Shown: positions 35,827-52,698, counted from the first letter of the stretch. The stretch: 64,000 nucleotides of DNA from Bacteroidota bacterium (GCA_003389385.1 QQVM01000021.1:73920-137919); one strand, 5' to 3'. Numbers and translations are program-made. Notes: generated from the letters alone by a model not told the origin.

Positions 35827-36555
35827 ATGTATAAAATCAGACTCATTGGTTTACTCCTGTTATCAGGAATGTCGTTTACCAGATTATCGCTTGCTCAAAG
35901 TTTCGAAATTTTTAAAGGAGACACTATTAATCGCACCGATAAAAGAGGTTTGAAGCAAGGAGCGTGGAAAAAATTCTATCCAGGTGATATGATTTACTTT
36001 GAAGGAATTTACAAAGATGATAAAGCACTTGGAGCGCTGAAATATTATCACAAGAACGGCAAGGTGAAAACTTTATTAAATAGCAGGGCAGTTAAAGGAG
36101 AATATTTTGCTGAATTCTTTTCTGAGGAAGGGAAGATGATTGGTACAGGAAAATATTTCAACCAGGAGAAAGACAGTGTATGGAATTATTTTGACTCAGA
36201 AGGCAGGGTGAATTCCACTGAGATTTACGTAAAGGGAAAAAAGGAAGGTGTATGGAAAGTTTATTATGTAAACGGTAAACTAGCCCGTGAACTAATGTAT
36301 AAAAATGACAGGAAGAACGGGCCGTACAGGGAATACTTTGATTCAGGCAAATTGAAAATCCAGGCAACTTACAAGAATGATGAGTTTACAGGAATTGCGA
36401 CTGTATTTCATCCTGACGGAAAAATCTGGCAGAAAGGTTCTTATGTGAATGGACTCAAAGAAGGAGCATGGGACATCTTTGATGTGAACGGAAAGCTGGA
36501 AAGACAGGAGCTTTACAAACAAGGAAATCTGCAAAACCCTCAGGAAGATAAATAG
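35827..36555 (+). CDS. MORN-repeat variant protein (YwqK-family-like), secreted
   Basis: Signal peptide followed by 8 or more repeats of G-x-W-K-x-Y-Y-x-N-G-K-L type. Confidence 0.65.
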   Translation: MYKIRLIGLLLLSGMSFTRLSLAQSFEIFKGDTINRTDKRGLKQGAWKKFYPGDMIYFEGIYKDDKALGALKYYHKNGKVKTLLNSRAVKGEYFAEFFSEEGKMIGTGKYFNQEKDSVWNYFDSEGRVNSTEIYVKGKKEGVWKVYYVNGKLARELMYKNDRKNGPYREYFDSGKLKIQATYKNDEFTGIATVFHPDGKIWQKGSYVNGLKEGAWDIFDVNGKLERQELYKQGNLQNPQEDK

Positions 36556-36613
36556 GACTTCTGTATTGGGCTTCAATTGATTATCTTTGCACTGAAATCC
36601 GGTTTTTAGTAAA

Positions 36614-37735
36614 ATGAGTAAAAAAGGAAGGGTATTAATGGCAATGAGTGGCGGAATAGACAGTTCCGTTGCTTCCGTATTACTTCATGAGCAAGGTTAT
36701 GAAGTTGTCGGAATGACCATGAAAACCTGGGATTATGCCAGTTCCGGAGGCAATAAGAAAGAAACAGGATGTTGTTCCCTGGATTCGATAAACGACGCAA
36801 GATCAATCGCAGTTGCAAAGGGTTTTCCACATTACATTATCGACATCAGGGAGGAATTCGGGAATCATGTGATTGACGATTTTGTGGATGAATATCTTTC
36901 CGGAAGGACTCCGAATCCTTGCGTCAAATGTAATACTCACATTAAGTGGGAGGCATTGCTGAAAAGAGCAGATATGCTGAGTTGTGAGTTCATCGCCACA
37001 GGCCACTATGCAAATGTGAGAGAAGAGAACGGACGATATGTTATCTCCAAAGGCAAGGATTCCTGGAAAGACCAAAGTTATGTGCTCTGGGGAGTAAGCC
37101 AGGAGTGTTTATCCCGAACCATTTTTCCTGTTGGGAATTTCCATAAATCAGAAATTCGACAAATGGCAGTGGAGATGGGACTTCACGAATTAGCCAATAA
37201 AAATGAATCGTATGAGATTTGCTTTATCCCGGATAATGATTACAGGTCATTCCTGAAAAGAAGAGTAGAGGGCATTGAGGAAAAGTTGGCGAATGGACTT
37301 TTTTTGGATAAAAATGGAAAAGTACTGGGTAAACACAGAGGCTATCCTTTTTATACAATCGGACAAAGAAAGGGCCTCGAAATTGCTTTAGGTGATCCAT
37401 ATTATGTGGTTGACATTAAGCCAGATGTCAATGTTGTTGTATTGGGTTTGTTTGAAGACTTACTTCAGCAGAAAATGTGGGTTCGGGATGCAAACTTTAT
37501 AAAAATAGAATCGTTAGAGGATGAAATGGAAGTGTTGACAAGGATTCGTTACAAGGATCCCGGCACTTACAGTACCATTAAAAAGTCGGAAGACCTGATT
37601 GAAGTGTCGTTTCACAAAGCGGTTTCAGCCATAGCACCCGGACAAAGCGCAGTTTTTTATGATGGTGATGATCTGGTCGGAGGCGGATTCATTCAGAGTG
37701 CAGTAAATGAAAACATCAGCAAGGCAGTACATTAA
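36614..37735 (+). CDS. mnmA: tRNA 2-thiouridine(34) synthase
   Basis: PP-loop MAMSGGIDSSVASVLL, catalytic Cys residues, and about 370 aa. Confidence 0.9.
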   Translation: MSKKGRVLMAMSGGIDSSVASVLLHEQGYEVVGMTMKTWDYASSGGNKKETGCCSLDSINDARSIAVAKGFPHYIIDIREEFGNHVIDDFVDEYLSGRTPNPCVKCNTHIKWEALLKRADMLSCEFIATGHYANVREENGRYVISKGKDSWKDQSYVLWGVSQECLSRTIFPVGNFHKSEIRQMAVEMGLHELANKNESYEICFIPDNDYRSFLKRRVEGIEEKLANGLFLDKNGKVLGKHRGYPFYTIGQRKGLEIALGDPYYVVDIKPDVNVVVLGLFEDLLQQKMWVRDANFIKIESLEDEMEVLTRIRYKDPGTYSTIKKSEDLIEVSFHKAVSAIAPGQSAVFYDGDDLVGGGFIQSAVNENISKAVH

Positions 37736-38408
37736 ATCAATTTTCATTCTCCTATTGATATCAGGAGTCTATTCTTCCTGTAAGAAAGACTCTCAAATCA
37801 TCAATTCAAATTCTTTTAATTATTTCCCGACTGCTAAAGGAACTTGGGTTGAGTATAACGTGGATTCGATATATCACGGAGAAAACGATAACAATAACGA
37901 CGATTCAGTCTATACCTTCAATTTTCAAATCAGAGAAATAGTGGATTCCACTTTTCTTGATGGGGAAGGCAGGGAAGTCCAGGTATTGATTCGATACAAA
38001 AGGATGAATAGTTCTGATGAATGGAGACTTGTGAGCGTTTGGACCCAAAGACTATCCTTAACCGGGGCATACAGGACAGAAGATAATATAACCTACCAAA
38101 AGCTTGCTTTCCCTATCAACTCAAGAATCTCATGGGATGGAAACGCAGCTAACATACTCAGTGAAGAATTGTATTCTTACGAGTCATTCCATGAAGAAAA
38201 TCTGGTGGGCAGCTTTTCCTTTGACTCCACTTTGACTGTACTACAGGTTGATGAGGACAATTTTGTAGAAAGAATTTTTGGAAAGGAAATCTACGCCGTT
38301 GGAGTAGGGATGATATTCAAGCAACGTGACGATCTTGGAAAAAGAAACGGACTTGTTGTAAAGGGCCTTGAATACAAAATGACCCTGCGGGATTATGGTC
38401 CTCGCTAG
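37707..38408 (+). CDS. hypothetical lipoprotein
   Basis: MKTSARQYIKSIFILLLISGVYSSCKKD lipobox. It overlaps the mnmA 3' end by 29 nt. Confidence 0.5.
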   Translation: MKTSARQYIKSIFILLLISGVYSSCKKDSQIINSNSFNYFPTAKGTWVEYNVDSIYHGENDNNNDDSVYTFNFQIREIVDSTFLDGEGREVQVLIRYKRMNSSDEWRLVSVWTQRLSLTGAYRTEDNITYQKLAFPINSRISWDGNAANILSEELYSYESFHEENLVGSFSFDSTLTVLQVDEDNFVERIFGKEIYAVGVGMIFKQRDDLGKRNGLVVKGLEYKMTLRDYGPR

Positions 38409-42729: not shown

Positions 42730-43242
42730 ATGAAACGTAAAAGCAACCAGGACATTTTCAGTTCTGTCCAAAACGGCGAAACAGAAATTTTGTTTTATCT
42801 CTGTGACAGGTATTTTTCTCATGCCCGCAAATGGTTGAGACGAAATGGAATGCCAGATGAATCAACACCGGAGTTTTTTGTGGATTTGATGTTGGATTTA
42901 TTGGAGGAAATCAGAATGCAAAACATGTCATCCAATGTGGAGTTTGAATCGCTGTTTTATAATACTTTGAAGAATTCGTTTGAAAATAGGAAAGGGAAAG
43001 GTGTGGAGTCGCCCGAATATTCTGATGACATCTTCAATAAAATAGCAGCAACATGTATTTCAAATTCCGATGAGAACACTCGTGATTTACTCAACAGCCG
43101 ATATGCCTTGAACCTGTCCTTTGAACAAATTGCTTCCCGATTCGATTTCAGCAATCCGGTTATAGCACAATTTGAAGTTAACAAGGCTATGAATCGTCTC
43201 CTTGATCGAATCAAAACAGAATCAAATCATAAGTCTGAATAA
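42730..43242 (+). CDS. divergent ECF-like sigma-70 family protein
   Basis: 170 aa. Region-2-like ILFYLCDRYFSHARKWLRRNG..PEFFVDLMLDLL and region-4-like HTH LNLSFEQIASRFDFSNPVIAQFEVNKAMNRLLDRI. Confidence 0.5.
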   Translation: MKRKSNQDIFSSVQNGETEILFYLCDRYFSHARKWLRRNGMPDESTPEFFVDLMLDLLEEIRMQNMSSNVEFESLFYNTLKNSFENRKGKGVESPEYSDDIFNKIAATCISNSDENTRDLLNSRYALNLSFEQIASRFDFSNPVIAQFEVNKAMNRLLDRIKTESNHKSE

Positions 43243-43243
43243 A

Positions 43244-44194
43244 ATGGGTCCTTCCCCGGAAGAGAGGTTGCTGATTGACCGATACCTTAAAGGTGAATTG
43301 AGTGGAATAGAGCTCCATGAATTCATGGAACGAATCGATGCAGATCCGGATTTCAGGCAGGAAGTAGTCCTACAGGACAAAGCTTCGTCTCAAATTAAAA
43401 TTTTATATAAAGCTAAGCTTAAGGAGCATTTGCTTGATTATATAAATTACAGAAAACCTCGCATTAATCCGGAGTTAAGGAATATTATTCTTTTCCTGCT
43501 TGTGCTTGGCACCGGAGTAATAATCTGGAACTACCCTGACTACAATGCAATAAAAACTGTGAGGAAGAATCTTTCCTTGTCACGATTTAAAAATAGTGAA
43601 CAAGTTAAAGATGCAAGTGAAAATACAAGAGACTTGAAAAAAGTGACTGAACATCAAAGTGGAAATCAAAAGGGAAATAACATTGAAGTGATTTCAGATT
43701 CTGTCTCTGAGATTGACGGATTGACTGAATCTGAACAATCATCTGCCGACAGCGTAGTGATTACACCAGCGGTGGGTGATGGGACTTTTATGGTCAGGCA
43801 GGATGAGCTGAAAGAAACCAAAACTATCCGAATTCAAAACCTTGCAGAGCAGACGGAGCAAAATTATGCAAACGTAACTTCTGAGAGCAGTGCATTAGAT
43901 GCTTTGAATAAAATGGCCCATTCATCCGGTTTACCACCGGTTGAAAGCATGAAGAAATCATCAGAGTCCATTGAAGTGGAGTTCTGGACTTCTCCGGTCA
44001 ATTACAGAGGTTACAAGTTAAGCCGCAGCAAACTGATATTGTTTGGAATTGATGAATCTGCTGATGTTGAACTTTTATCTTTTAACGAGCAATTGTATCT
44101 TAAACTCAGAAACGAATATTATCTGATCAGAAATAACGAGACATTTAATAATTTCCAAAGAGTGAACAAGCCGGAAACATCATTCAGGCAATAA
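43244..44194 (+). CDS. putative anti-sigma factor (single-pass membrane)
   Basis: Start ATG overlaps the upstream stop (TAAAATGG). The N-terminal EERLLIDRYLKGELSGIELHEFMERIDADPDFRQEV is typical of Bacteroidota anti-sigma N-domains, followed by the TM helix ILFLLVLGTGVIIW. The C-terminal periplasmic domain is unassigned. Confidence 0.5.
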   Translation: MGPSPEERLLIDRYLKGELSGIELHEFMERIDADPDFRQEVVLQDKASSQIKILYKAKLKEHLLDYINYRKPRINPELRNIILFLLVLGTGVIIWNYPDYNAIKTVRKNLSLSRFKNSEQVKDASENTRDLKKVTEHQSGNQKGNNIEVISDSVSEIDGLTESEQSSADSVVITPAVGDGTFMVRQDELKETKTIRIQNLAEQTEQNYANVTSESSALDALNKMAHSSGLPPVESMKKSSESIEVEFWTSPVNYRGYKLSRSKLILFGIDESADVELLSFNEQLYLKLRNEYYLIRNNETFNNFQRVNKPETSFRQ

Positions 44195-45022
44195 ATGTTG
44201 ATCATGATTATCAAATTCAGCAAATACCAGGGAACGGGCAACGACTTTATCATGATTGATAACAGATCAGAAGAGCATGTTTTTAAAGGAGAACTGGTAG
44301 CACGTCTTTGCCACAGAAGATTCGGGATTGGTGCCGACGGGCTGATACTTCTGCAAAATCATCATGAGAGTGATTTTGAAATGATCTACTTTAATTCCGA
44401 CGGTAATTTAGGTTCAATGTGCGGTAACGGAGGCCGATGCATAGTTTCATTCGCTAATTCCTGTGGTATCACTAAGGATGAATATTGTTTCAAGGCAAGC
44501 GACGGAACTCATCAGGCGTTGATCAAAAGAGGTAATCCTGATAATGTTAAATTGAAAATGAAGGATGTGAGTCAAATCGCTAAGCGAGTTGATTTGTGGT
44601 TTGCTGATACCGGCTCTCCGCATGTTGTCATCAAAATGGATAAAATTGATGAACTCGATTTGATAAAGGTGGGCAGAGAAATCAGGTATTCTGATGAGTT
44701 CGCTGAAGAAGGCGTAAACGTGAATGTTACCGAAGTAAGAAATAGTATTCTTGCTGTGAGAACTTACGAAAGAGGCGTAGAGAATGAAACATTTTCATGT
44801 GGAACCGGTGTCACTGCAGTTTCATTGATTGCAGTCAGGAACAAATGGATAATACCCTCCGGCAATTTTGTGGACATTGATACTCCCGGTGGAAGTTTAA
44901 GAGTTCACTTTAAGGAAGAACAAAACAGATTTACGGATATCTGGTTGGAAGGACCCGCAGCACTTGTGTATACCGGTGAATTTGATGCAGATGATCTGAG
45001 CCATCGGATTGTTATAAAGTAA
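44195..45022 (+). CDS. dapF: diaminopimelate epimerase
   Basis: FSKYQGTGNDFIMIDN N-terminal motif, two catalytic Cys (MCGNGGRC, FSCGTG). About 272 aa. Confidence 0.9.
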   Translation: MLIMIIKFSKYQGTGNDFIMIDNRSEEHVFKGELVARLCHRRFGIGADGLILLQNHHESDFEMIYFNSDGNLGSMCGNGGRCIVSFANSCGITKDEYCFKASDGTHQALIKRGNPDNVKLKMKDVSQIAKRVDLWFADTGSPHVVIKMDKIDELDLIKVGREIRYSDEFAEEGVNVNVTEVRNSILAVRTYERGVENETFSCGTGVTAVSLIAVRNKWIIPSGNFVDIDTPGGSLRVHFKEEQNRFTDIWLEGPAALVYTGEFDADDLSHRIVIK

Positions 45023-45112
45023 CATCTGATTGTGTAAAAACCATTATGCCCATGCTTCGCTTAACTGGTGCATGATTTCGTATATTCGTCCAGCACATTA
45101 AGAAACACTGAA

Positions 45113-45658
45113 ATGCAATTAATCGGAGAACTGATTCAGCTCAGAGCCTTGGAGCCATCTGACTTGAATCTGCTTTACAGATGGGAAAATGACTCCAGCA
45201 TTTGGAGCGTTAGCGGTACTCTTGTTCCTTTTTCGAAATTCGTTCTTGAGGAATTTGTAAACCAGGCTCACCAGGACATATATACAAACAAGCAAATCAG
45301 GTTGATGATTGATTTGAAATACCTGGAAGAGGATGATACAGATGATTCAAGGTGTATAGGTTGTGTCGATATTTTTGACTTTGATCCTAAAAACAGAAGG
45401 GCAGGTGTTGGAATACTCATTGCTGACAGAGCTGACAGAGGAAAAGGATATGCAACTGAGGCCTTGCATCTTATCATTGATTATGCGTTTGAAGTGCTTG
45501 ACCTTCATCAACTGTATGCAAATGTACGCGTCGATAATGAGAGTAGTGTCACGCTTTTTAAAAGACTGGGCTTTGAGATAACCGGTTTAAAGCAAGATTG
45601 GATCTACCATCAGGGGAAATACTTCGATGAATACAGCATGCAATTAATAAAAAAATAA
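45113..45658 (+). CDS. GNAT-family N-acetyltransferase (RimJ/RimL-like)
   Basis: GNAT fold with acetyl-CoA motif RGKGYATEAL. The ORF opens at 45068; Met 45113 is the likely start. Confidence 0.7.
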   Translation: MQLIGELIQLRALEPSDLNLLYRWENDSSIWSVSGTLVPFSKFVLEEFVNQAHQDIYTNKQIRLMIDLKYLEEDDTDDSRCIGCVDIFDFDPKNRRAGVGILIADRADRGKGYATEALHLIIDYAFEVLDLHQLYANVRVDNESSVTLFKRLGFEITGLKQDWIYHQGKYFDEYSMQLIKK

Positions 45659-45680: not shown

Positions 45681-47726
45681 ATGGCTTTATTCAGAAAAGC
45701 TTTTTTAGTTGTGCATAGAAGCAAAGCAGTCATCCTGCTTTCAATATTGTTTTTTTTTTCCTGCAGTTGTGAAACAAGAGATTCTAAGGAACAAATTCCT
45801 AAGTACGCCTCTTTGTCTGATTCTACAGAATATGTCGGAATGCAAACCTGCAGGCAATGTCACAGTGACATTTATAACACTTACATAAATACAGGCATGG
45901 GCCAATCATTTGACTATGCCACAGGAAAGAAATCCTCTGCTGATTTTTCCGGAGATGCGCTTGTACGGGATATCCACAAAAATTTCTTATATCACACGGA
46001 ATTGAAAGGAGATTCGCTTTTTCTGAAGGAATTCAGAATGAGTGGAGGAGATACAGTTTACCAAAGCAACAGAAAGCTCGATTATATAGTAGGCAGCGGA
46101 CAGCACACCAATTCTCATCTCTGGCTGAGCGGACAATATTTATACCAGGCGCCGGTAACATTTTACACTCAAAAAGGAATATGGGATCTGCCTCCTGGTT
46201 TTGAAGGCGGCTTTAATTCAAGGTTTGGAAGAAAGATCGAACTTGAGTGTATTTCATGCCATAATGGATTGCCTAAAATAGTTCCAGGTTCACAAAATAA
46301 GTATGAGTTAATTCCCAATGGAATCGACTGTGAAAGATGTCATGGGCCCGGAAAGAAACATGTGGATGATAAACTCAAAGGCATACGAATTGACACCTCA
46401 AAATACATCGACTACAGCATAGTTAACCCTTCTAAGTTGCCGATAGATTTACAGCTTGACGTGTGTCAGCGCTGTCACATACAAGGCAACGCTGTGCTGA
46501 ATGAAGGAAAAACTTTTCTTGATTTCAGGCCCGGGATGAAATTGTCTGATGTGATGAATGTTTTTATGCCTGTATATAAGGGGCAAGAAAATGAACATAT
46601 AATGGCCTCTCACAGTGAGAGAATGAAAATGAGTGAGTGTTATAAAGTTTCAATTCAAAGTACTCACACCAATCCGAAGGATAATGAGCTTAAGCCTTAT
46701 AAATCTGCCATGACATGCATTACTTGTCATAATCCGCATGTTAGTGTAAAGGTCACAGGTTTTGATAATTATAACAATGCCTGCAATTCCTGCCATGGAG
46801 GAGCTGTTGCACAAGGTTTAAAAAATCATTCAGTATTATGCAGTATGCCAGAGAAAGACAGGCTGGCAGCAGGAAACAACTGCGTTTCATGTCATATGAA
46901 AAAGAACACAACCATTGACATTCCCCATGTTAGCTCTACGGATCATTTTATTCGAAAACCTGTTAATGAAAAAGAAAAGGAAAGCATAAGGGAGTTTTTA
47001 GCACTTGTTTGCATTAATAATCCCAATGCAGATTCCATTGCGACAGGCAAAGCCTATCTTTCGTACTTCGAAAAATTTGTTTCCAATAAGGTATACCTCG
47101 ATTCAGCTGAAAGATATCTGATTAAGCCGGTTATGCGAATGCCTGAAGCCTACATTCACTTGTTGGTACGATTGTACTTTCTGAAGAATGAATACCTGAA
47201 GGTAAAGGAGTTAAGACGATTCGCAGACAAATATCTGGCACGTGCCAAAGGTCCGGATGTCAGCAATGAACATGCATGGTGCGCCTACCGTCTGGGTGAG
47301 TCATTTTATAAGTCAGGCGATCTTATAAATTCTAAAATGTATTTTTCCCTGGCTGTAGAGCTTGCGCCCTTCATTCCGGAGTTCAGAAATAAGTTTGCAA
47401 GTGTGCTTCATGACGCTGGAAAAACGGAAGAATCAATAAAGCAGTATCAAATAATCATTCGTGAAAATCCGGAATACATCTCTTCATATACAAGCTTAGG
47501 CTTCATACTGCTTTCAGAAAAATCCGATGCAGCTAAGGCGGAAGAATTGTTCAATAGCGCTCTTAAACTGGACCCGGATAATGTGCCAGCATTGCTCAAT
47601 ATGGCAGGTTTAAAGCTTTACTCAGGCAGGAAAGCAGAAGCCCTGGCCCTGTTAGGCAGAGTGCTGCAGATTGACCCTAAAAACAGTGAGGCCTCTGCAC
47701 TGAAAAACAAACTGAAGAATAACTGA
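45681..47726 (+). CDS. heptaheme c-type cytochrome fused to C-terminal TPR repeats, probable lipoprotein
   Basis: Seven CxxCH motifs: CRQCH (nt 45849..45863), CISCH, CERCH, CQRCH, CITCH, CNSCH, CVSCH. All lie within the first about 410 aa. The C-terminal about 250 aa are TPR-like. The N-terminus ILLSILFFFSCSC is lipoprotein-like. Confidence 0.8.
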   Translation: MALFRKAFLVVHRSKAVILLSILFFFSCSCETRDSKEQIPKYASLSDSTEYVGMQTCRQCHSDIYNTYINTGMGQSFDYATGKKSSADFSGDALVRDIHKNFLYHTELKGDSLFLKEFRMSGGDTVYQSNRKLDYIVGSGQHTNSHLWLSGQYLYQAPVTFYTQKGIWDLPPGFEGGFNSRFGRKIELECISCHNGLPKIVPGSQNKYELIPNGIDCERCHGPGKKHVDDKLKGIRIDTSKYIDYSIVNPSKLPIDLQLDVCQRCHIQGNAVLNEGKTFLDFRPGMKLSDVMNVFMPVYKGQENEHIMASHSERMKMSECYKVSIQSTHTNPKDNELKPYKSAMTCITCHNPHVSVKVTGFDNYNNACNSCHGGAVAQGLKNHSVLCSMPEKDRLAAGNNCVSCHMKKNTTIDIPHVSSTDHFIRKPVNEKEKESIREFLALVCINNPNADSIATGKAYLSYFEKFVSNKVYLDSAERYLIKPVMRMPEAYIHLLVRLYFLKNEYLKVKELRRFADKYLARAKGPDVSNEHAWCAYRLGESFYKSGDLINSKMYFSLAVELAPFIPEFRNKFASVLHDAGKTEESIKQYQIIIRENPEYISSYTSLGFILLSEKSDAAKAEELFNSALKLDPDNVPALLNMAGLKLYSGRKAEALALLGRVLQIDPKNSEASALKNKLKNN

Positions 47727-47872
47727 ATGAGGTTTTTGTCTGGATTAAAGCTCTGTTAAGGTTAAATCAAGTATCGGTTAATTAATGCCCAATTGAATAA
47801 CCTGAGTGCATTATTCGAGCTTCAATTTTATACATTTGCAGAGCTCAAGGGACTTATCGGAAATTTTAAACG

Positions 47873-48574
47873 ATGTTGATGAAGACAAAAGGAAAAATAC
47901 TACTTGTTGATGATGAGCCGGACATACTTGAGTTTCTCAGGTACAATCTCGTCAAAGAAAATTATGAAGTTATATCAGTAAACAATGGTCGCGATGCCTT
48001 GAAACAGGCTGTAAATTTCAAGCCTGATCTTATTATTCTTGATGTGATGATGCCAGAGATGGACGGGATTGAGACTTGCAGGCAGCTAAGGGAAAATAAT
48101 ACACTGAGCAATACCTTAATCATTTTCCTTACTGCCCGGCATGAAGATTATTCTCAGATTGCGGGCTTAAGCGCGGGAGCAGACGATTATATCACCAAAC
48201 CTGTGAAACCCCAGGTGCTAATCAGCAGACTGGAGGCTATGTTCAGAAGATATAAAAGGGGTGAAAGAATACAGTCAGACAATGACACAAACATGATTGA
48301 AGCAGGCCGCGTGAAGATCGACAGGGACAAGTATCTTGTATCGATAGACGGTACTGATCTGGACTTTCCAAGAAAGGAGTTTGAGCTGCTTGCTTTTCTT
48401 GCATCACGTCCTGGAAAAGTTTTTTCCCGTGATGAAATATTGAATCAAGTTTGGGGAGAAGATGTGGTTGTAGGGGACAGAACAATAGATGTTCATGTCA
48501 GAAAGATACGGGAGAAACTTGGCGATGATTCAATCCGGACAATTAAAGGAGTTGGGTATAAATTCGATATGTAA
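47873..48574 (+). CDS. OmpR-family response regulator
   Basis: REC domain ILLVDDEPDILEF...DLIILDVMMPEMDG. Winged-helix output RTIDVHVRKIREKLG...VGYKFD. Confidence 0.9.
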   Translation: MLMKTKGKILLVDDEPDILEFLRYNLVKENYEVISVNNGRDALKQAVNFKPDLIILDVMMPEMDGIETCRQLRENNTLSNTLIIFLTARHEDYSQIAGLSAGADDYITKPVKPQVLISRLEAMFRRYKRGERIQSDNDTNMIEAGRVKIDRDKYLVSIDGTDLDFPRKEFELLAFLASRPGKVFSRDEILNQVWGEDVVVGDRTIDVHVRKIREKLGDDSIRTIKGVGYKFDM

Positions 48575-48612
48575 ATTGGGGAAACAAATTCTAAAATGAG
48601 GGATTTTATTTC

Positions 48613-49668
48613 ATGAGACTTAAAAACCCGACGCCAAGATTTCTTTCGTTTTACGCCGCCGTATCTGTGAGTCTGGTTGGTTTAATACTCCTTCTTTTGT
48701 TTTATTTCACAGACTTAAAAGCTGAGTCATTTTCATCCCTGATCCTAATTGTAGTTGTACTTTTCACGTCATCATATTTGATTTTCCGCTTCTTTCTTGA
48801 ATTTTTTATTTATAGAAAGATTAAACTGATATACAAAACAATCAATACATTACAGGAAACCAAACAACATACATCAAGCCTGCTTGAAGGAAAGGAAGAC
48901 ATTATTGGAAATGTCAACAAGGAAGTTATGAAGTGGAACGAAGCCCGATCAGAAGAAATCAGTATACTCAGAAAAAATGAAATCTTCCGTAAGGAATTTC
49001 TGGGTAATGTTTCTCATGAGTTGAAAACACCTATATTCAACATACAAGGTTACATACATACACTTCTTGACGGTGGTATAGATGATCCTGAAGTCAATAT
49101 TCATTACTTGCAGAGAGCTGCAAAATCAGCAGAACGTTTGTGTATGATCGTAGAAGATTTAGAGCAGATTTCAAATCTCGAATCCGGAGATTTTAAAATT
49201 GAGATGCGCACTTTCGACATTTATGATCTTGCCGAGGATGTTTTGGACAGCCAGGATTTGTATGCCGGTGAGAAAAACATCCAGCTTGGATTCAAAGATG
49301 GATTGAATAAACCTGTATATGTTATAGGCGATAAGGACAGAATAAGAGAGGTGCTTGTAAACCTTGTAGTGAACTCAATTAAATATGGAAAGAAAGGTGG
49401 AAGCACCAAAATCGGATTTTACGATATGGATGAGAAAATTCTGGTTGAAGTCACTGATACCGGAATAGGAATCAGCTCCGAGCACTTGCCCAGATTGTTT
49501 GAACGGTTTTACAGAGTCGATAAAGGCAGGTCCAGAGATCAGGGCGGTTCTGGTCTGGGATTGGCAATTGTAAAGCATATTATAGAAGCACATAAACAGG
49601 TTATTAAGGTCAGAAGTACATTGACAGAAGGAAGCACTTTCTCCTTCACTCTAAACAAAGCTGATTGA
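48613..49668 (+). CDS. sensor histidine kinase (2 TM, HisKA + HATPase_c)
   Basis: H-box HELKTPIFNIQGY, a G-box TDTGIGI, GGSGLGLAIVK, and two N-terminal TM helices with a short periplasmic loop. Confidence 0.9.
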   Translation: MRLKNPTPRFLSFYAAVSVSLVGLILLLLFYFTDLKAESFSSLILIVVVLFTSSYLIFRFFLEFFIYRKIKLIYKTINTLQETKQHTSSLLEGKEDIIGNVNKEVMKWNEARSEEISILRKNEIFRKEFLGNVSHELKTPIFNIQGYIHTLLDGGIDDPEVNIHYLQRAAKSAERLCMIVEDLEQISNLESGDFKIEMRTFDIYDLAEDVLDSQDLYAGEKNIQLGFKDGLNKPVYVIGDKDRIREVLVNLVVNSIKYGKKGGSTKIGFYDMDEKILVEVTDTGIGISSEHLPRLFERFYRVDKGRSRDQGGSGLGLAIVKHIIEAHKQVIKVRSTLTEGSTFSFTLNKAD

Positions 49669-49690
49669 TCATACAAATAGAACCTATAAA

Positions 49691-50215
49691 ATGAAACACA
49701 AAAGAATGAAATTGAAAATTTGCATTACAATTATTGTCGTGGCAGCATTTATTGGCTGTGGTAAAACTGAAAATGAATATTCACAGTTAAGTATATTTCT
49801 TACTGATGCGCCTGCCGCATATGACAGTGTTTTGATTGATGTGAAGTCGGTTGAAGTTCACACCAACAATGGAGGCTGGATTTCCTTACCTACAAATCAA
49901 GGCATATATGATTTGCTTCAACTTAGGAATAATGTGGATACATTGCTTGTTCCGGTCCAGCAGATACCTGCAGGAAAAGTAAGTCAGGTTCGGTTAATTC
50001 TAGGCTCAGGCAACAGAATTGTGGACGGCGGAAATTCATATCCGCTTGTCATTCCCAGTGGAGAAGAGAGTGGATTAAAGCTCAATATACACCGCACATT
50101 GCAACCAAATACATCATACATTCTGTTGCTGGATTTTGATGCAGCTCAGTCAGTTCATCAAACTGGCAATGGACAATATAAGTTAAAACCTGTTATTAAA
50201 GCGAACTTCAGATAA
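49691..50215 (+). CDS. DUF4382-family lipoprotein
   Basis: Lipobox AAFIGCG, then LTDAPAAYDSVLIDVKSVEVH...IPAGKVSQVRLIL...PSGEESGLKLN, a pattern typical of DUF4382. Confidence 0.65.
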   Translation: MKHKRMKLKICITIIVVAAFIGCGKTENEYSQLSIFLTDAPAAYDSVLIDVKSVEVHTNNGGWISLPTNQGIYDLLQLRNNVDTLLVPVQQIPAGKVSQVRLILGSGNRIVDGGNSYPLVIPSGEESGLKLNIHRTLQPNTSYILLLDFDAAQSVHQTGNGQYKLKPVIKANFR

Positions 50216-50690: not shown

Positions 50691-52079
50691 TTATTCCAGA
50701 GATATGTTTTCATCTCCGTTTTGATAAGGCATCCAGGAAATTATCAGCTGAAACATTTCATCTGTAGTTCGCATGCTTCCGGCTCTTTCTGTAACTGTTC
50801 TCGGTGGGTCAAATGGATTATTTGGATTAGCTGAGGTGTTGTCAAAGACACCGTGCACTTTAATAACAGAGCGTGCTGGAATTTTTTGGATCTTTTTATA
50901 AGTGTAAAAATACTGCCACTTGAAATCCCATTCAGGGATTCTGATCAGCCTGATTGTATCTCCTGAGGGAGTCATAGCATATGCGTGAAAACTTTTCCCG
51001 AGCAAGTGCATGTGAGGATTTATCGTTACAATCGACATATCGGATGGTACGCGATATTCTGTGGTGAAACTCATCACTGTATCCGGTGGAATAATAAGAG
51101 GGGGATCTATGCGAGTGATGCCCGATGTTCCCAGAATCATTTCCTTGAGTGGTCTTTTAGGTGCAGAAGGGCTGAAGAAAATATTGAAACTGCTTTGGTC
51201 ACTTGTGTCTACAGGACTCGGACCATAATGCATGTTGTCAAGCAGGAGGACTCCCTGTTTAGTTACCTTAATTCCACCGATTCCTTCAGGATATAAAACA
51301 GGTTCTACCCCTGGAAGAAAATTGCTCACGGAAGGACTTAACAATGGATAAGTTCCATCATCATTCGGCAAGTCCAGCAGTTCATAAGCTTTTTGCTTAT
51401 CATGTTTTTCAGTGTCAACGTAGGGTAATCCTTTGGTGTGATCTGCTTTTTCACCACGATCATATTGAACTATGTGAGCATTCACGTGATGAACCAGTTT
51501 TTTATTTCCAGGAACAATTTCGATGGCTTTGATAAAAGTATCCTGAGGAAATTCGAAAGGAATTTTTAACATGTAAAATTTATCCTGATTATCTCCTTTG
51601 ATAAAAACAGGATTTGGAATTTGCAGCACCATGTCAGGTTTCCCAAGAAAGCTGTTGTCATGAAAAACAGGCAGGGGAGGGCTAAGCTTTGGATTTCCTT
51701 CAGGCGCACCGGCTTCTATCCAGTTGTTGATCAGAGATTTTTCATTGTGAGTCAGTGCTTTTTCACCTTTAAAAGAAACGTATTCAGGATCAGCCGGCCA
51801 TGGAGGCATTATTCCTGAATTTATTACGAGTTGAATTGTTTTCAAACGGCTTGTTACATCTTCAAATGTCAGAAGATTAATCGGTGCAGATGAACCGGGC
51901 CTGTGACAGGGACTGCACTTTGCATGAATGATCGGAGCAATGTGAACTGAATAAACAAGGTTTTGATCTGAAGTAGTATTTTCTGTCTGGCTGCATGAGG
52001 TTGCCAATATGAAAATACAGGTGAAGACCAAGCCTGTTTGGAGTAATCGAATTACCGGCATATTAAATCCTGAGTGCAA
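50691..52079 (-). CDS. c-type cytochrome domain fused to copper type II (PHM/DBH-like) monooxygenase core, probable lipoprotein
   Basis: N-terminus LATSCSQ. Heme motif HIAPIIHAKCSPCHRPGSSAPINLLTFEDV...IMPPWPAD. CuH-like LVHHVNAH. CuM-like NPHMHLLGKSF ... TDEMFQLII. Confidence 0.7.
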   Translation of the reverse strand: MHSGFNMPVIRLLQTGLVFTCIFILATSCSQTENTTSDQNLVYSVHIAPIIHAKCSPCHRPGSSAPINLLTFEDVTSRLKTIQLVINSGIMPPWPADPEYVSFKGEKALTHNEKSLINNWIEAGAPEGNPKLSPPLPVFHDNSFLGKPDMVLQIPNPVFIKGDNQDKFYMLKIPFEFPQDTFIKAIEIVPGNKKLVHHVNAHIVQYDRGEKADHTKGLPYVDTEKHDKQKAYELLDLPNDDGTYPLLSPSVSNFLPGVEPVLYPEGIGGIKVTKQGVLLLDNMHYGPSPVDTSDQSSFNIFFSPSAPKRPLKEMILGTSGITRIDPPLIIPPDTVMSFTTEYRVPSDMSIVTINPHMHLLGKSFHAYAMTPSGDTIRLIRIPEWDFKWQYFYTYKKIQKIPARSVIKVHGVFDNTSANPNNPFDPPRTVTERAGSMRTTDEMFQLIISWMPYQNGDENISLE

Positions 52080-52089
52080 ATTAAATTCT

Positions 52090-52698
52090 TCATTCGATGA
52101 TACAGCCTATCGCACGGGTTTTCTTCACTTGAATTTCTTTTCCCTGAAGAAATTCTTCGATGGCATTTTTCAAGTCATGAGTGCGCGCTTCACGCCTTTT
52201 CTTCCCAGGAGCGTACATCCAGTCATCCACTCTTCCCTGATACAATATTCTAGCTTTATTGTCCAGTAGAAACACCTCAGGAGAAATCACTGCGCCAAGT
52301 AAAGATACAATCATCTTATCAGGATCGCGAAGGAGCGGGAAGCGTATTTTATATCTTCTCTGATATGCTCTCATTTCTTCTGGTTTTCCATAGGGTCCTG
52401 GAAATACACCATATAATTTAATTCCGGCTTCAGAATATTTTTCATGAAACTCATTGAAGTTTTTAGAATAATTTTCACATGCAGGACAATCAGGAAGTAG
52501 GAATACAATTATACTGGCTTTGTTGGAAGCTAATTCGGAGAAATTGAAATTATTTCCGTCAATTGTTTTTAATTTCTGATCAAAGAGAATTCTTTGTTGT
52601 GCCAAGGAGTTCGATGATAAAAACAAAAGCGACAGACAGCAGATGCAGAGTAGAGATATGAGCTTTCCTGTCTTATATTTCATCAGTTGAATATTCAA
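52090..52698 (-). CDS. TlpA/ResA-like thiol:disulfide oxidoreductase (redoxin)
   Basis: Signal peptide and LLPDCPACENY CxxC. The start overlaps the 3' end of the downstream nuclease gene by 11-26 nt depending on which Met is used. Confidence 0.75.
   Translation of the reverse strand: MNIQLMKYKTGKLISLLCICCLSLLFLSSNSLAQQRILFDQKLKTIDGNNFNFSELASNKASIIVFLLPDCPACENYSKNFNEFHEKYSEAGIKLYGVFPGPYGKPEEMRAYQRRYKIRFPLLRDPDKMIVSLLGAVISPEVFLLDNKARILYQGRVDDWMYAPGKKRREARTHDLKNAIEEFLQGKEIQVKKTRAIGCIIE

What the first reader, a model, noticed from the sequence alone, without database searches (positions are those of the whole stretch)
45681..50215. Lipoprotein-like heptaheme cytochrome c-TPR fusion directly upstream of an OmpR/HK pair and a DUF4382 lipoprotein
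The 681-aa protein packs seven CxxCH motifs into about 410 aa, a density typical of multiheme electron-transfer modules. It then switches to about 250 aa of TPR-like helical repeats. That fusion is not a textbook cytochrome family. It has a lipoprotein-type N-terminus, so it is probably anchored on the periplasmic side. A two-component system (2-TM sensor kinase with a tiny periplasmic loop, plus an OmpR-type regulator) and a DUF4382 lipoprotein follow on the same strand within 150 bp. This could be a redox-sensing or extracytoplasmic electron-transfer module.
Basis: seen in the sequence. Interest (0 to 1): 0.65.

Follow-up and report, generated by a model that had tools for sequence, protein, structure and literature searches.

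The report
Conserved seven-heme cytochrome–TPR lipoprotein
A lipid-anchored protein with seven heme groups and a protein-docking (TPR) tail is really encoded here and belongs to a very large, unstudied Bacteroidota family, but its closeness to the sensor-kinase genes is gene order confined to one lineage, not a conserved functional module.

Summary
Window 45681-47726(+) encodes a 681-aa protein with a conserved lipoprotein signal (Cys28) and seven CxxCH motifs (0.02 expected by chance). Its last ~250 aa form a TPR superhelix. An OmpR-type regulator, a 2-TM histidine kinase and a DUF4382 lipoprotein follow on the same strand.

The regulator-kinase pair follows the cytochrome in only one sub-lineage, where the whole ~18-kb block is syntenic. 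It has its own conserved promoter-like element. DUF4382 appears in 1 of 86 related loci. Elsewhere the commonest downstream gene is yceG/mltG (28 of 71 loci).

Best reading: an extracytoplasmic, lipid-anchored electron-transfer cytochrome that docks partners through its TPR domain, with partner and substrate unknown. An invariant unpaired cysteine (C320) keeps a catalytic role open. I found no paper on this family. Interest is moderate.

The parts
45681..47726 (+). Gene for the 681-aa heptaheme cytochrome c-TPR lipoprotein
   Evidence: ORF. 100% identical to an NCBI MAG Bacteroidetes hypothetical protein, and more than 5,200 homologues were found.
45681..45764 (+). Signal peptide with lipobox; Cys28 (codon 45762-45764) is the predicted lipidated residue
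   Evidence: Hydrophobic segment aa 7-28. Cys28 is invariant in 58 of 58 aligned homologues, each behind a hydrophobic region, and is followed by a polar linker of about 12 residues that the model places with low confidence.
45804..47030 (+). Heme domain (aa 42-450) with seven CxxCH motifs at nt 45849-45863, 46248-46262, 46329-46343, 46464-46478, 46716-46730, 46782-46796 and 46881-46895
45909..46190 (+). Beta-sheet sub-domain (aa 77-170) between hemes 1 and 2; carries the invariant loop GSGQHTNSH (aa 138-146)
   Evidence: Strands in both AlphaFold models. The loop is invariant in close homologues, and GSG is conserved in at least 97% of the wider family. OcwA and MccA share an extra beta-sheet domain (PMC6703420).
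46638..46640 (+). Codon of Cys320, an invariant cysteine outside any heme-binding motif
   Evidence: Conserved in 117 of 117 distant family representatives. In 21 of 116 there is no second lone Cys between hemes 6 and 7, and most of those have none after heme 7 either. It aligns with the first Cys of the OcwA heme-5 motif CLKCH.
47034..47720 (+). C-terminal TPR-like superhelix (aa 452-680); the clearest repeats are at aa 530-664, followed by a capping helix
47727..47872 (+). 146-nt spacer between cytochrome and regulator genes, with a Bacteroidetes-type -7 promoter element TACATTTG at 47831-47838
   Evidence: The motif occurs 0.36 times per kb on this strand of the window. TACATTTG is exact in the window, L083 and L084 and differs by one base (TACATTTA) in L002 and L003; the longer surrounding block TAACCTTTTnTTTACATTTGCnTAACAT is shared by L002, L003, L083 and L084 but not by the window.
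47873..48574 (+). OmpR/PhoB-family response regulator (233 aa)
   Evidence: Response_reg plus Trans_reg_C. Best NCBIfam hits are PhoB models at 219-220 bits, below their cut-offs of 270 and 296.
48613..49668 (+). Histidine kinase (351 aa) with two transmembrane segments, a minimal outer loop and no PAS or HAMP hit
   Evidence: HisKA plus HATPase_c. Hydropathy. PnpS and PhoR models score below cut-off. Large orthologous family at 58-65% identity.
49691..50215 (+). DUF4382 lipoprotein (174 aa); variable accessory gene in this slot
   Evidence: PF14321 E 1.3e-33. Lipobox FIGC. Among 86 related loci a homologue is found only in L001.
44195..45658 (+). dapF (44195-45022) and a GNAT acetyltransferase (45068-45658) directly upstream; the GNAT stop codon is 22 nt before the cytochrome start
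   Evidence: DapF homologue (blastp 47-56% identity to ORFs in related loci; DAP_epimerase Pfam on the syntenic genes). Acetyltransf_3 Pfam hit on the GNAT. The GNAT lies directly upstream in 21 of 72 loci, often with gaps of -28 to +45 nt.

Best explanation
The gene encodes a lipid-anchored, extracytoplasmic heptaheme c-type cytochrome. It belongs to a very large uncharacterised family that is mostly Bacteroidota.

Its heme domain is a pruned relative of the OcwA/OmhA/MccA/cytochrome c554 clade. It keeps the counterparts of OcwA hemes 1-4 and 6-8 and the extra beta-sheet sub-domain. It has lost OcwA hemes 5 and 9. In place of the three C-terminal helices of OcwA it carries a TPR superhelix of about 250 aa.

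The most likely mode of action (inferred, not shown) is as follows. A chain of closely packed hemes is tethered to a membrane by a flexible linker of about 12 residues. It relays electrons in the periplasm or at the cell surface. The TPR domain docks it to a protein partner.

The regulator-kinase pair and the DUF4382 gene are a separate, separately promoted neighbour. They were inserted next to the cytochrome in one sub-lineage and are not part of its mechanism.
For: Shown:
- Seven invariant CxxCH motifs against 0.02 expected by chance.
- A lipobox Cys conserved in 58 of 58 homologues.
- A TPR fold.
- Motif-by-motif HMMER alignment to OcwA. It places Cys320 on the lost heme-5 motif and finds no counterpart of OcwA heme 9.
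- The OcwA literature describes the shared beta-sheet domain and the heme layout (PMC6703420; PMC9250108).
- Family size and constant architecture: at least 574 species genomes; 1,639 50%-identity clusters at E<=1e-30; TPR tails in 10 of 10 distant representatives; seven hemes in 111 of 117.
- Four non-motif His (227, 353, 416, 422) are 100% conserved and H311 is 85% conserved, as expected for distal ligands of low-spin relay hemes.

Independence from the two-component system:
- A regulator orthologue is adjacent in 3 of 71 loci, against yceG/mltG in 28 of 71.
- DUF4382 occurs in 1 of 86 loci.
- Whole-block synteny is seen wherever the pair is adjacent.
- One orthologous regulator-kinase pair sits in a context without the cytochrome.
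- A conserved -7 promoter element lies in the spacer.
Against: - No electron donor or acceptor is identified. No redox partner gene is conserved next to the cytochrome in 86 loci, including two distant ones.
Heme-domain confidence is only moderate (pLDDT about 60-90).
- His142 and His146 are invariant in close relatives but replaced by Q/A/K and Y/F in the wider family. Only 4-5 distal His are universal for seven hemes, so at least one heme may be five-coordinate or have a non-His ligand.
- The 100% conserved unpaired Cys320, with R314, S318 and R184, looks more like an active or ligand site than a feature of a plain wire.
- OcwA itself has reductase activities.
- Cellular location (inner membrane, outer membrane inner leaflet or surface) is unresolved. 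No clear surface-export motif follows the lipobox.
Confidence: 0.55

Rival explanations
1. The protein is an enzyme rather than a relay: a periplasmic or surface reductase or oxidase of a small nitrogen or sulfur oxyanion, or of a metal. Its active site would be at the heme equivalent to OcwA/MccA/c554 heme 2, or at a His/Cys-ligated or metal-binding site built around the invariant Cys320. The other hemes would feed electrons to that site.
For: - Its structural relatives OcwA, MccA and c554 all have a five-coordinate heme 2, and OcwA reduces nitrite and hydroxylamine in vitro (PMC6703420; PMC9250108).
- Only 4-5 universally conserved distal His serve seven hemes.
- Cys320 is conserved in 117 of 117 representatives and is unpaired in many members. 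R314, S318 and R184 are at least 97% conserved.
- The loop GSGQHTNSH is invariant in the close family.
- MccA uses two cysteines to hold an active-site copper (as quoted in PMC9250108).
Against: - The OcwA distal-pocket His-His pair is not kept. The window has E305-H306, and position 306 is Phe in 89 of 117 family members.
- There is no CxxCK, CX15CH or other catalytic-heme motif.
- No MccB/C/D-, NrfH- or NrfBCD-like partner genes are nearby.
- The position of Cys320 relative to any heme could not be determined.
Confidence: 0.25
2. One reading: the cytochrome, the two-component system and the DUF4382 lipoprotein form one redox-sensing or extracytoplasmic electron-transfer module. The kinase has almost no outer loop, so it would sense through the cytochrome.
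For: - Same strand with short gaps.
- Cytochrome-regulator-kinase adjacency recurs in relatives L001, L002, L003, L014, L083 and L084.
- At least 17 of the top 120 cytochrome hits share a longest-contig length with top kinase hits. This is a proxy for co-residence, not proof.
- Kinases that sense within the membrane often rely on accessory proteins (general knowledge).
Against: - Adjacency is confined to one clade in which about 18 kb is syntenic, so it carries no independent weight.
- It is absent in 68 of 71 informative loci, where mltG or other housekeeping genes follow.
- DUF4382 is present in 1 of 86 loci, and the slot after the kinase is variable.
- An orthologous regulator-kinase pair occurs next to msrB with no cytochrome.
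- A conserved promoter-like element separates the units.
Confidence: 0.05
3. The protein is a cell-envelope scaffold. A TPR lipoprotein, in the manner of NlpI, LpoA or PilW, would organise peptidoglycan enzymes, and the heme domain would give it a redox input.
For: - In 28 of 71 loci the cytochrome gene is followed within -8 to +150 nt by yceG/mltG, often then by a glmM-like phosphoglucosamine mutase. It is preceded by a GNAT gene and dapF, and a PASTA-domain gene is nearby in some loci.
- Tiny or negative gaps suggest co-transcription.
- Source databases name some homologues NlpI, PilF or TadD from the TPR similarity.
Against: - The context could simply be conserved housekeeping gene order.
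- It is lost in Chitinophagaceae-type loci, which have tyrS upstream and sodA downstream, and in distant members.
- mltG is not found in this 64-kb window at all.
- The names in databases are generic TPR transfers.
- No known peptidoglycan scaffold carries hemes.
Confidence: 0.08
4. The protein serves in heme storage, or as a cytochrome-maturation or chaperone factor. The TPR domain would bind apocytochromes as CcmI/CycH or NrfG do.
For: TPR_CcmH_CycH (PF23914) matches the TPR tail. The match is weak in the window protein (20 bits against a cut-off of 42) but above cut-off in three distant representatives (46-49 bits).
Against: - The TPR similarity is generic; many TPR models score as well or better.
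- Known maturation factors carry no multiheme domain.
- No ccm or ccs genes are adjacent.
Confidence: 0.04

Closest known systems
OcwA, nonaheme cell-surface cytochrome of Thermincola potens (PDB 6I5B), and the related undecaheme S-layer cytochrome OmhA (PDB 6QVM)
   Different: Seven hemes, not nine or eleven. OcwA heme 5 (one of its two five-coordinate hemes) is reduced to a lone Cys320, and heme 9 (His/Met) is absent. The His-His distal pocket is not conserved. Identity is only 21%. A TPR superhelix replaces the three-helix bundle. The protein is lipid-anchored in a diderm Bacteroidota cell rather than attached to a Gram-positive wall.
MccA, octaheme sulfite reductase of Wolinella succinogenes (PDB 4RKM)
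   Different: No CX15CH heme motif. The catalytic residues and the copper site could not be mapped. No mccBCD-like neighbours. Seven hemes rather than eight. TPR tail.
Cytochrome c554 and pentaheme NrfA
   Same: Pfam Cytochrome_C554 gives a weak hit on the heme 2-3 region. NrfA sequences align weakly with the heme 7 region, CxxCHM...H. All belong to one homologous group according to PMC9250108.
   Different: No CxxCK motif. Different heme number. E-values of only 2e-3 to 0.03.
MtrA/DmsE and GSU2203-type decaheme periplasmic cytochromes
   Same: Best raw sequence scores: 6r2q_A (a 333-aa chain I take from memory to be MtrA, though the deposit labels it 'Cystathionine beta-synthase') at E 1.6e-11, NCBIfam GSU2203 at 60 bits and DmsE at 41 bits. 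The scores are driven by repeated CxxCH...H spacing.
TPR lipoproteins and TPR adaptor domains (OGT TPR, PilW/PilF, NlpI, CcmI/CycH TPR)
   Different: All specific NCBIfam TPR families score far below cut-off. None of these proteins carries a heme domain.
PhoB/PhoR-type two-component systems
   Same: The regulator and kinase score best against PhoB and PnpS/PhoR models. JGI names orthologues 'phosphate regulon sensor histidine kinase PhoR'.
   Different: Scores are below all equivalog cut-offs. The kinase is 351 aa with no PAS domain hit and an outer loop of under 10 residues. No pst or pho genes are adjacent.

Membership tests
c-type multiheme cytochromes | Several CxxCH heme-attachment motifs in an exported protein | tested here: met
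   Seven CxxCH motifs, invariant in homologues. Signal peptide with lipobox. Covalent heme itself is not testable here.
OcwA/OmhA family | Nine (or eleven) hemes, including two five-coordinate hemes, each with a His-His distal pocket | tested here: not met
   Seven motifs. The OcwA heme-5 motif is reduced to Cys320 and heme 9 is absent. The pocket position is E305-H306 here and Phe in 89 of 117 relatives.
OcwA/OmhA/MccA/c554 clade (fold level) | Shared heme-domain fold with the extra beta-sheet sub-domain | tested here: met
MccA sulfite reductase | Eight hemes with a CX15CH (or CX17CH) motif and a Cys-Cys copper site at heme 2 | tested here: not met
   No CX15CH or CX17CH motif: the only long-range Cys...CH spacing is C387-X16-C404H405, which overlaps the normal C401xxCH motif, and the lone-Cys spacing varies across the family. 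The copper site could not be mapped.
NrfA nitrite reductase | Pentaheme with a catalytic CxxCK heme | tested here: not met
   No CxxCK motif. PDB NrfA matches have E 2e-3 to 0.03 and cover the C-terminal hemes only.
NrfH/NapC/CymA quinol dehydrogenases | Tetraheme protein of about 200 aa with an N-terminal transmembrane anchor | tested here: not met
   No such Pfam or NCBIfam hit. 681 aa with seven hemes and a lipobox rather than a membrane helix anchor.
DmsE/MtrA and GSU2203 decaheme families (NCBIfam TIGR03508, NF041028) | Score above the curated cut-off | tested here: not met
   40.7 bits against 192.2, and 60.2 bits against 325.
TPR repeat proteins | Tandem helix-turn-helix repeats of 34 residues forming a superhelix | tested here: met
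Bacterial lipoproteins | Signal peptide ending in a lipobox with an invariant Cys | tested here: met
   FFFS-C28. The Cys is invariant in 58 of 58 homologues behind a hydrophobic region. Lipidation and final location are not testable here.
PhoB/PhoR phosphate regulon system | Equivalog-level score; PAS-containing PhoR | tested here: not met
   Regulator 220 bits against 296 and 219 against 270. Kinase 234 against 334 and 169 against 500. No PAS hit.
DUF4382 (PF14321) | Pfam score above the gathering cut-off | tested here: met
   116.5 bits against 25, E 1.3e-33.
   Regulator orthologue adjacent in 3 of 71 loci. DUF4382 in 1 of 86 loci. Adjacency is seen only within whole-block synteny.

The most novel reading that the evidence does not exclude
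Widespread Bacteroidota, most of them named as groups I know as aerobic, would carry an unrecognised extracytoplasmic redox enzyme or terminal reductase derived from the OcwA/MccA lineage. It would be lipid-anchored, possibly surface-exposed. Its chemistry would depend on the universally conserved unpaired Cys320, either as a His/Cys-ligated heme or as a Cys-bound metal site replacing the lost heme 5. The TPR domain would couple it to a specific partner, possibly the cell-wall machinery encoded next to it.
Probability: 0.2. Interest if true: 0.7.

Novelty: new variant of a known kind. Interest (0 to 1): 0.4.

Why it matters
Multiheme cytochromes of the NrfA/HAO/MccA/OcwA group are central to nitrogen, sulfur and metal redox cycling. 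They have been studied almost only in Proteobacteria, Firmicutes and anammox bacteria.

This result shows that a seven-heme, TPR-fused, lipid-anchored offshoot is among the more widespread members of that group. It occurs in at least 574 species genomes and about 1,600 50%-identity clusters. It is concentrated in freshwater, soil and activated-sludge Bacteroidota that are not thought of as electroactive. No characterised member and no curated family exist.

It fits the published 'grafting and pruning' picture of multiheme cytochrome evolution: two hemes pruned and a TPR module grafted. It also offers a tractable target, because cultured carriers such as Flavipsychrobacter stenotrophus exist.

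For the scan itself the lesson is negative. The proposed redox-sensing module is lineage-specific gene order, not a system.

Tried and rejected
- **Trimmed heme-domain model.** Predicting the heme domain alone, to keep TPR hits out of fold searches, gave a lower-confidence model (pLDDT 62 against about 72 for the same region in the full model). It still returned OcwA, OmhA and MccA as the only meaningful hits.
- **AlphaFold database.** The afdb50 library was unavailable.
- **Mapping Cys320 and the beta-domain histidines.** Sequence searches against MccA and OcwA did not extend the alignments into those regions.
- **Literature.** Seven full-text searches found no paper on this family. The TPR mentions in the Tenderiales and Geobacter Tn-seq papers concern other proteins.
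- **Search for a conserved redox partner.** I looked in 86 loci, including two distant ones, and found none.
- **Sigma-70 promoter and terminator scan.** Counts did not differ from shuffled sequence, and Bacteroidota use a different promoter type, so I used the TAnnTTTG motif instead.
- **Surface-export signal.** No clear acidic motif follows the lipobox, so location stays open.
- **Rejected family assignments.** NrfH/NapC, NrfA, MtrA/DmsE, GSU2203 and PhoBR.


Full report
**1. Observation**

They are a 681-aa protein (45681-47726), a 233-aa regulator (47873-48574), a 351-aa kinase (48613-49668) and a 174-aa protein (49691-50215). The gaps are 146, 38 and 22 nt.

The 681-aa protein has seven CxxCH motifs at aa 57, 190, 217, 262, 346, 368 and 401, and no variant motifs. 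Shuffling the same protein 20,000 times gave a mean of 0.02 motifs and never more than 2. Pfam finds several heme-binding domain models on aa 187-410 and many TPR models on aa 573-678.

The N-terminus is a hydrophobic segment ending in FFFS-C28. The regulator is of the OmpR/PhoB type. The kinase has two hydrophobic segments separated by fewer than 10 residues, then HisKA and HATPase_c. The last protein is a DUF4382 lipoprotein.

**2. The fusion is a large, old family, not a curiosity**

The window protein is identical to an NCBI 'hypothetical protein' of a Bacteroidetes MAG. More than 5,200 homologues were found, and the best 120 are all 600-700 aa at 48-57% identity. Where the sources name them at all, the names are generic: 'tetratricopeptide repeat protein', TPR-based labels such as PilF, TadD or NlpI, 'hypothetical protein', and once 'multiheme c-type cytochrome'.

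Nearly all are in Bacteroidota: Chitinophagales including the cultured Flavipsychrobacter stenotrophus, Saprospiraceae, Flavobacteriales MAGs and one Rhodothermales MAG.

A profile of the heme domain alone, run against 1.84 billion cluster representatives, matched 6,381 proteins. Of these, 1,639 had E<=1e-30, and the best 150 almost all carry the domain at the N-terminus of a 600-745 aa protein. Ten of ten distant representatives have TPR tails. 111 of 117 full-length representatives (26-46% identical to the window protein) have exactly seven CxxCH motifs.

In 58 close homologues Cys28, all heme motifs and seven further histidines are invariant. The lipobox is present in 58 of 58.

**3. What the heme domain resembles**

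No curated family claims it. NCBIfam decaheme models score 41-60 bits against cut-offs of 192-325.

A profile search of PDB sequences gave these hits:
- chain 6r2q_A, which I take from memory to be MtrA although the deposit labels it 'Cystathionine beta-synthase' (E 1.6e-11, driven by repeated motifs);
- OcwA (3e-9);
- the undecaheme 6qvm (1e-6);
- MccA (3e-6);
- NrfA (2e-3).

The residue alignments to OcwA place our hemes 1, 3, 4, 5, 6 and 7 on OcwA hemes 1, 3, 4, 6, 7 and 8. Our lone Cys320 falls on the first Cys of the OcwA heme-5 motif. OcwA heme 9 has no counterpart.

Both models show a beta-sheet sub-domain between hemes 1 and 2. OcwA and MccA are the members of this group that share such a domain (PMC6703420). 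The published phylogeny groups OcwA, OmhA, MccA and c554 as one clade that evolved by gain and loss of modules (PMC9250108).

**4. Is the two-component system part of it?**

I fetched 86 related loci and compared their neighbours by BLAST and clustering.

- A regulator orthologue directly follows the cytochrome in 3 of 71 loci with at least 900 nt of downstream sequence. A truncated one appears in L014.
- The commonest downstream gene is yceG/mltG (28 of 71, same strand, gaps -8 to +150 nt), often followed by a glmM-like mutase.
- Upstream, a GNAT acetyltransferase (21 of 72) and dapF are common.
- Chitinophagaceae-type loci instead have tyrS upstream, then a small unknown protein and sodA downstream.
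- Two distant members sit next to unrelated genes.

Wherever the regulator and kinase do follow the cytochrome (L001-L003, L083, L084), about 18 kb around them is syntenic with the window: gap, rpoD-like, htrA, two unknown genes, dapF, GNAT, cytochrome, regulator, kinase, GNAT, a 460-aa protein, redoxin. The adjacency therefore adds nothing beyond shared ancestry.

The kinase has a large orthologous family at 58-65% identity. At least 17 of its top hits share a longest-contig length with top cytochrome hits, so within this clade the adjacency is probably common. One orthologous pair, however, sits next to msrB and a Y_Y_Y kinase with no cytochrome.

A DUF4382 homologue occurs in only one other locus (L001). 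The slot after the kinase is empty in four loci and holds a sortilin-like secreted protein in another.

The 146-nt spacer contains TACATTTG, the Bacteroidetes -7 promoter motif (my knowledge of the consensus TAnnTTTG). The motif is exact in the window, L083 and L084 and differs by one base in L002 and L003. The longer block around it is shared by those four relatives but not by the window.

By contrast the cytochrome starts 22 nt after the GNAT gene. The cytochrome thus looks like the last gene of a dapF-GNAT-cytochrome unit, and regulator-kinase-DUF4382 looks like a separate unit.

**5. Mechanism**

*Shown:* an exported, lipobox-bearing protein with seven conserved heme-attachment sites, an OcwA-like heme-domain fold and a TPR domain.

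*Inferred:* the hemes form a packed chain as in OcwA, and the protein is tethered by a flexible linker of about 12 residues (low pLDDT at aa 29-48). It would relay electrons outside the cytoplasm while the TPR domain docks a partner. I give this 0.55.

The main rival (0.25) is that it is an enzyme. Across the wider family only His227, 353, 416 and 422 are universal, and His311 is 85% conserved. His142 and His146 are replaced by Q/A/K and Y/F, so not all seven hemes can be bis-His everywhere.

Cys320 is conserved in 117 of 117 representatives, together with R314, S318 and R184. In 21 of 116 members it has no possible partner Cys between hemes 6 and 7, and most of those have none after heme 7 either, so it is not merely half of a disulfide. 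That pattern suggests a heme ligand, a metal ligand or a catalytic residue.

Against the enzyme reading, the OcwA His-His pocket is not kept (position 306 is Phe in 89 of 117). No catalytic-heme motif exists. No dedicated partner genes are conserved.

**6. Comparison and novelty**

The protein works like, and is distantly related to, OcwA, OmhA and MccA. It fails their defining features (heme number, five-coordinate pockets, CX15CH), so I do not file it as a member of any of them. It is a new variant: seven hemes, a TPR tail and a lipid anchor, mostly in Bacteroidota.

The family is visible in databases under generic names. I found no publication on it in seven searches. The two-component pair is PhoBR-like only in score ranking and is below all cut-offs.

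**7. Verdict**

The feature is real and the protein-level description is correct. The 'module' interpretation is not supported.

Interest is moderate (0.4): a very widespread, uncharacterised offshoot of an important cytochrome clade, with an unexplained invariant cysteine, but not a surprising new system. The most novel reading still open is an unrecognised extracytoplasmic redox enzyme or terminal reductase in common aerobic Bacteroidota. I put that at about 0.2.

Noticed in passing
window 50691-52079 (-) and 52090-52698 (-): A 462-aa lipoprotein-like protein with a single CxxCH (CSPCH near aa 55). It has only sub-threshold Pfam signals for Haem_bd (E 0.013) and Cu2_monoox_C (E 0.041) and no PDB sequence relative. 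It sits next to a secreted AhpC/TSA-type redoxin in the window and in L001-L003, L083 and L084. It may be an uncharacterised heme/copper monooxygenase-like protein with a thiol-reductase partner.
   Followed up: partly
window 46638-46640 (Cys320 of the cytochrome): A cysteine outside any heme motif is conserved in 117 of 117 distant family members and is unpaired in many of them. It aligns with the first Cys of the heme-binding motif that OcwA has at this position. Its role is unexplained.
   Followed up: partly
loci L004-L072 (e.g. L004:10031-11089, L004:12332-13738): In 28 of 71 loci the cytochrome gene is followed within -8 to +150 nt by yceG/mltG, often then by a glmM-like phosphoglucosamine mutase. 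It is preceded by a GNAT gene and dapF, and some loci have a PASTA-domain gene nearby. The context has a peptidoglycan theme. No mltG is found anywhere in the 64-kb window.
   Followed up: partly
L078:1123-3318 and L078:3904-6189: A Rhodothermales MAG carries two tandem paralogues of the cytochrome-TPR protein, 39% and 29% identical to the window protein.
   Followed up: no
proteins P0187 and P0271 (no window coordinates): RecX helix-turn-helix domains are fused in frame to the N-terminus of a cytochrome-TPR homologue of about 738 aa, which NCBI names 'RecX family transcriptional regulator'. This is probably a gene-call run-on rather than a real fusion.
   Followed up: no
window 47800-47850; L002, L003, L083, L084 spacers: A conserved block, TAACCTTTTnTTTACATTTGCnTAACAT, lies upstream of the regulator gene in L002, L003, L083 and L084. 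It contains the -7 promoter motif and two TAAC elements about 21 nt apart, which could be an autoregulatory site. The window keeps only the TACATTTG core.
   Followed up: no
window 42730-43242 (+) and 43202-44194 (+): A 170-aa and a 330-aa ORF overlap by 41 nt. They are conserved in synteny between htrA and dapF in L001-L003, L083 and L084 and have no Pfam hit. Their size and position recall a sigma/anti-sigma pair, but nothing supports that.
   Followed up: no
window 36001-38000: GC skew is 0.223, well above the rest of the window, which is mostly within +/-0.1.
   Followed up: no
L071:10096-10900: In the cultured Flavipsychrobacter stenotrophus the gene after the cytochrome encodes a PAS-domain protein unrelated to the window's kinase.
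   Followed up: no
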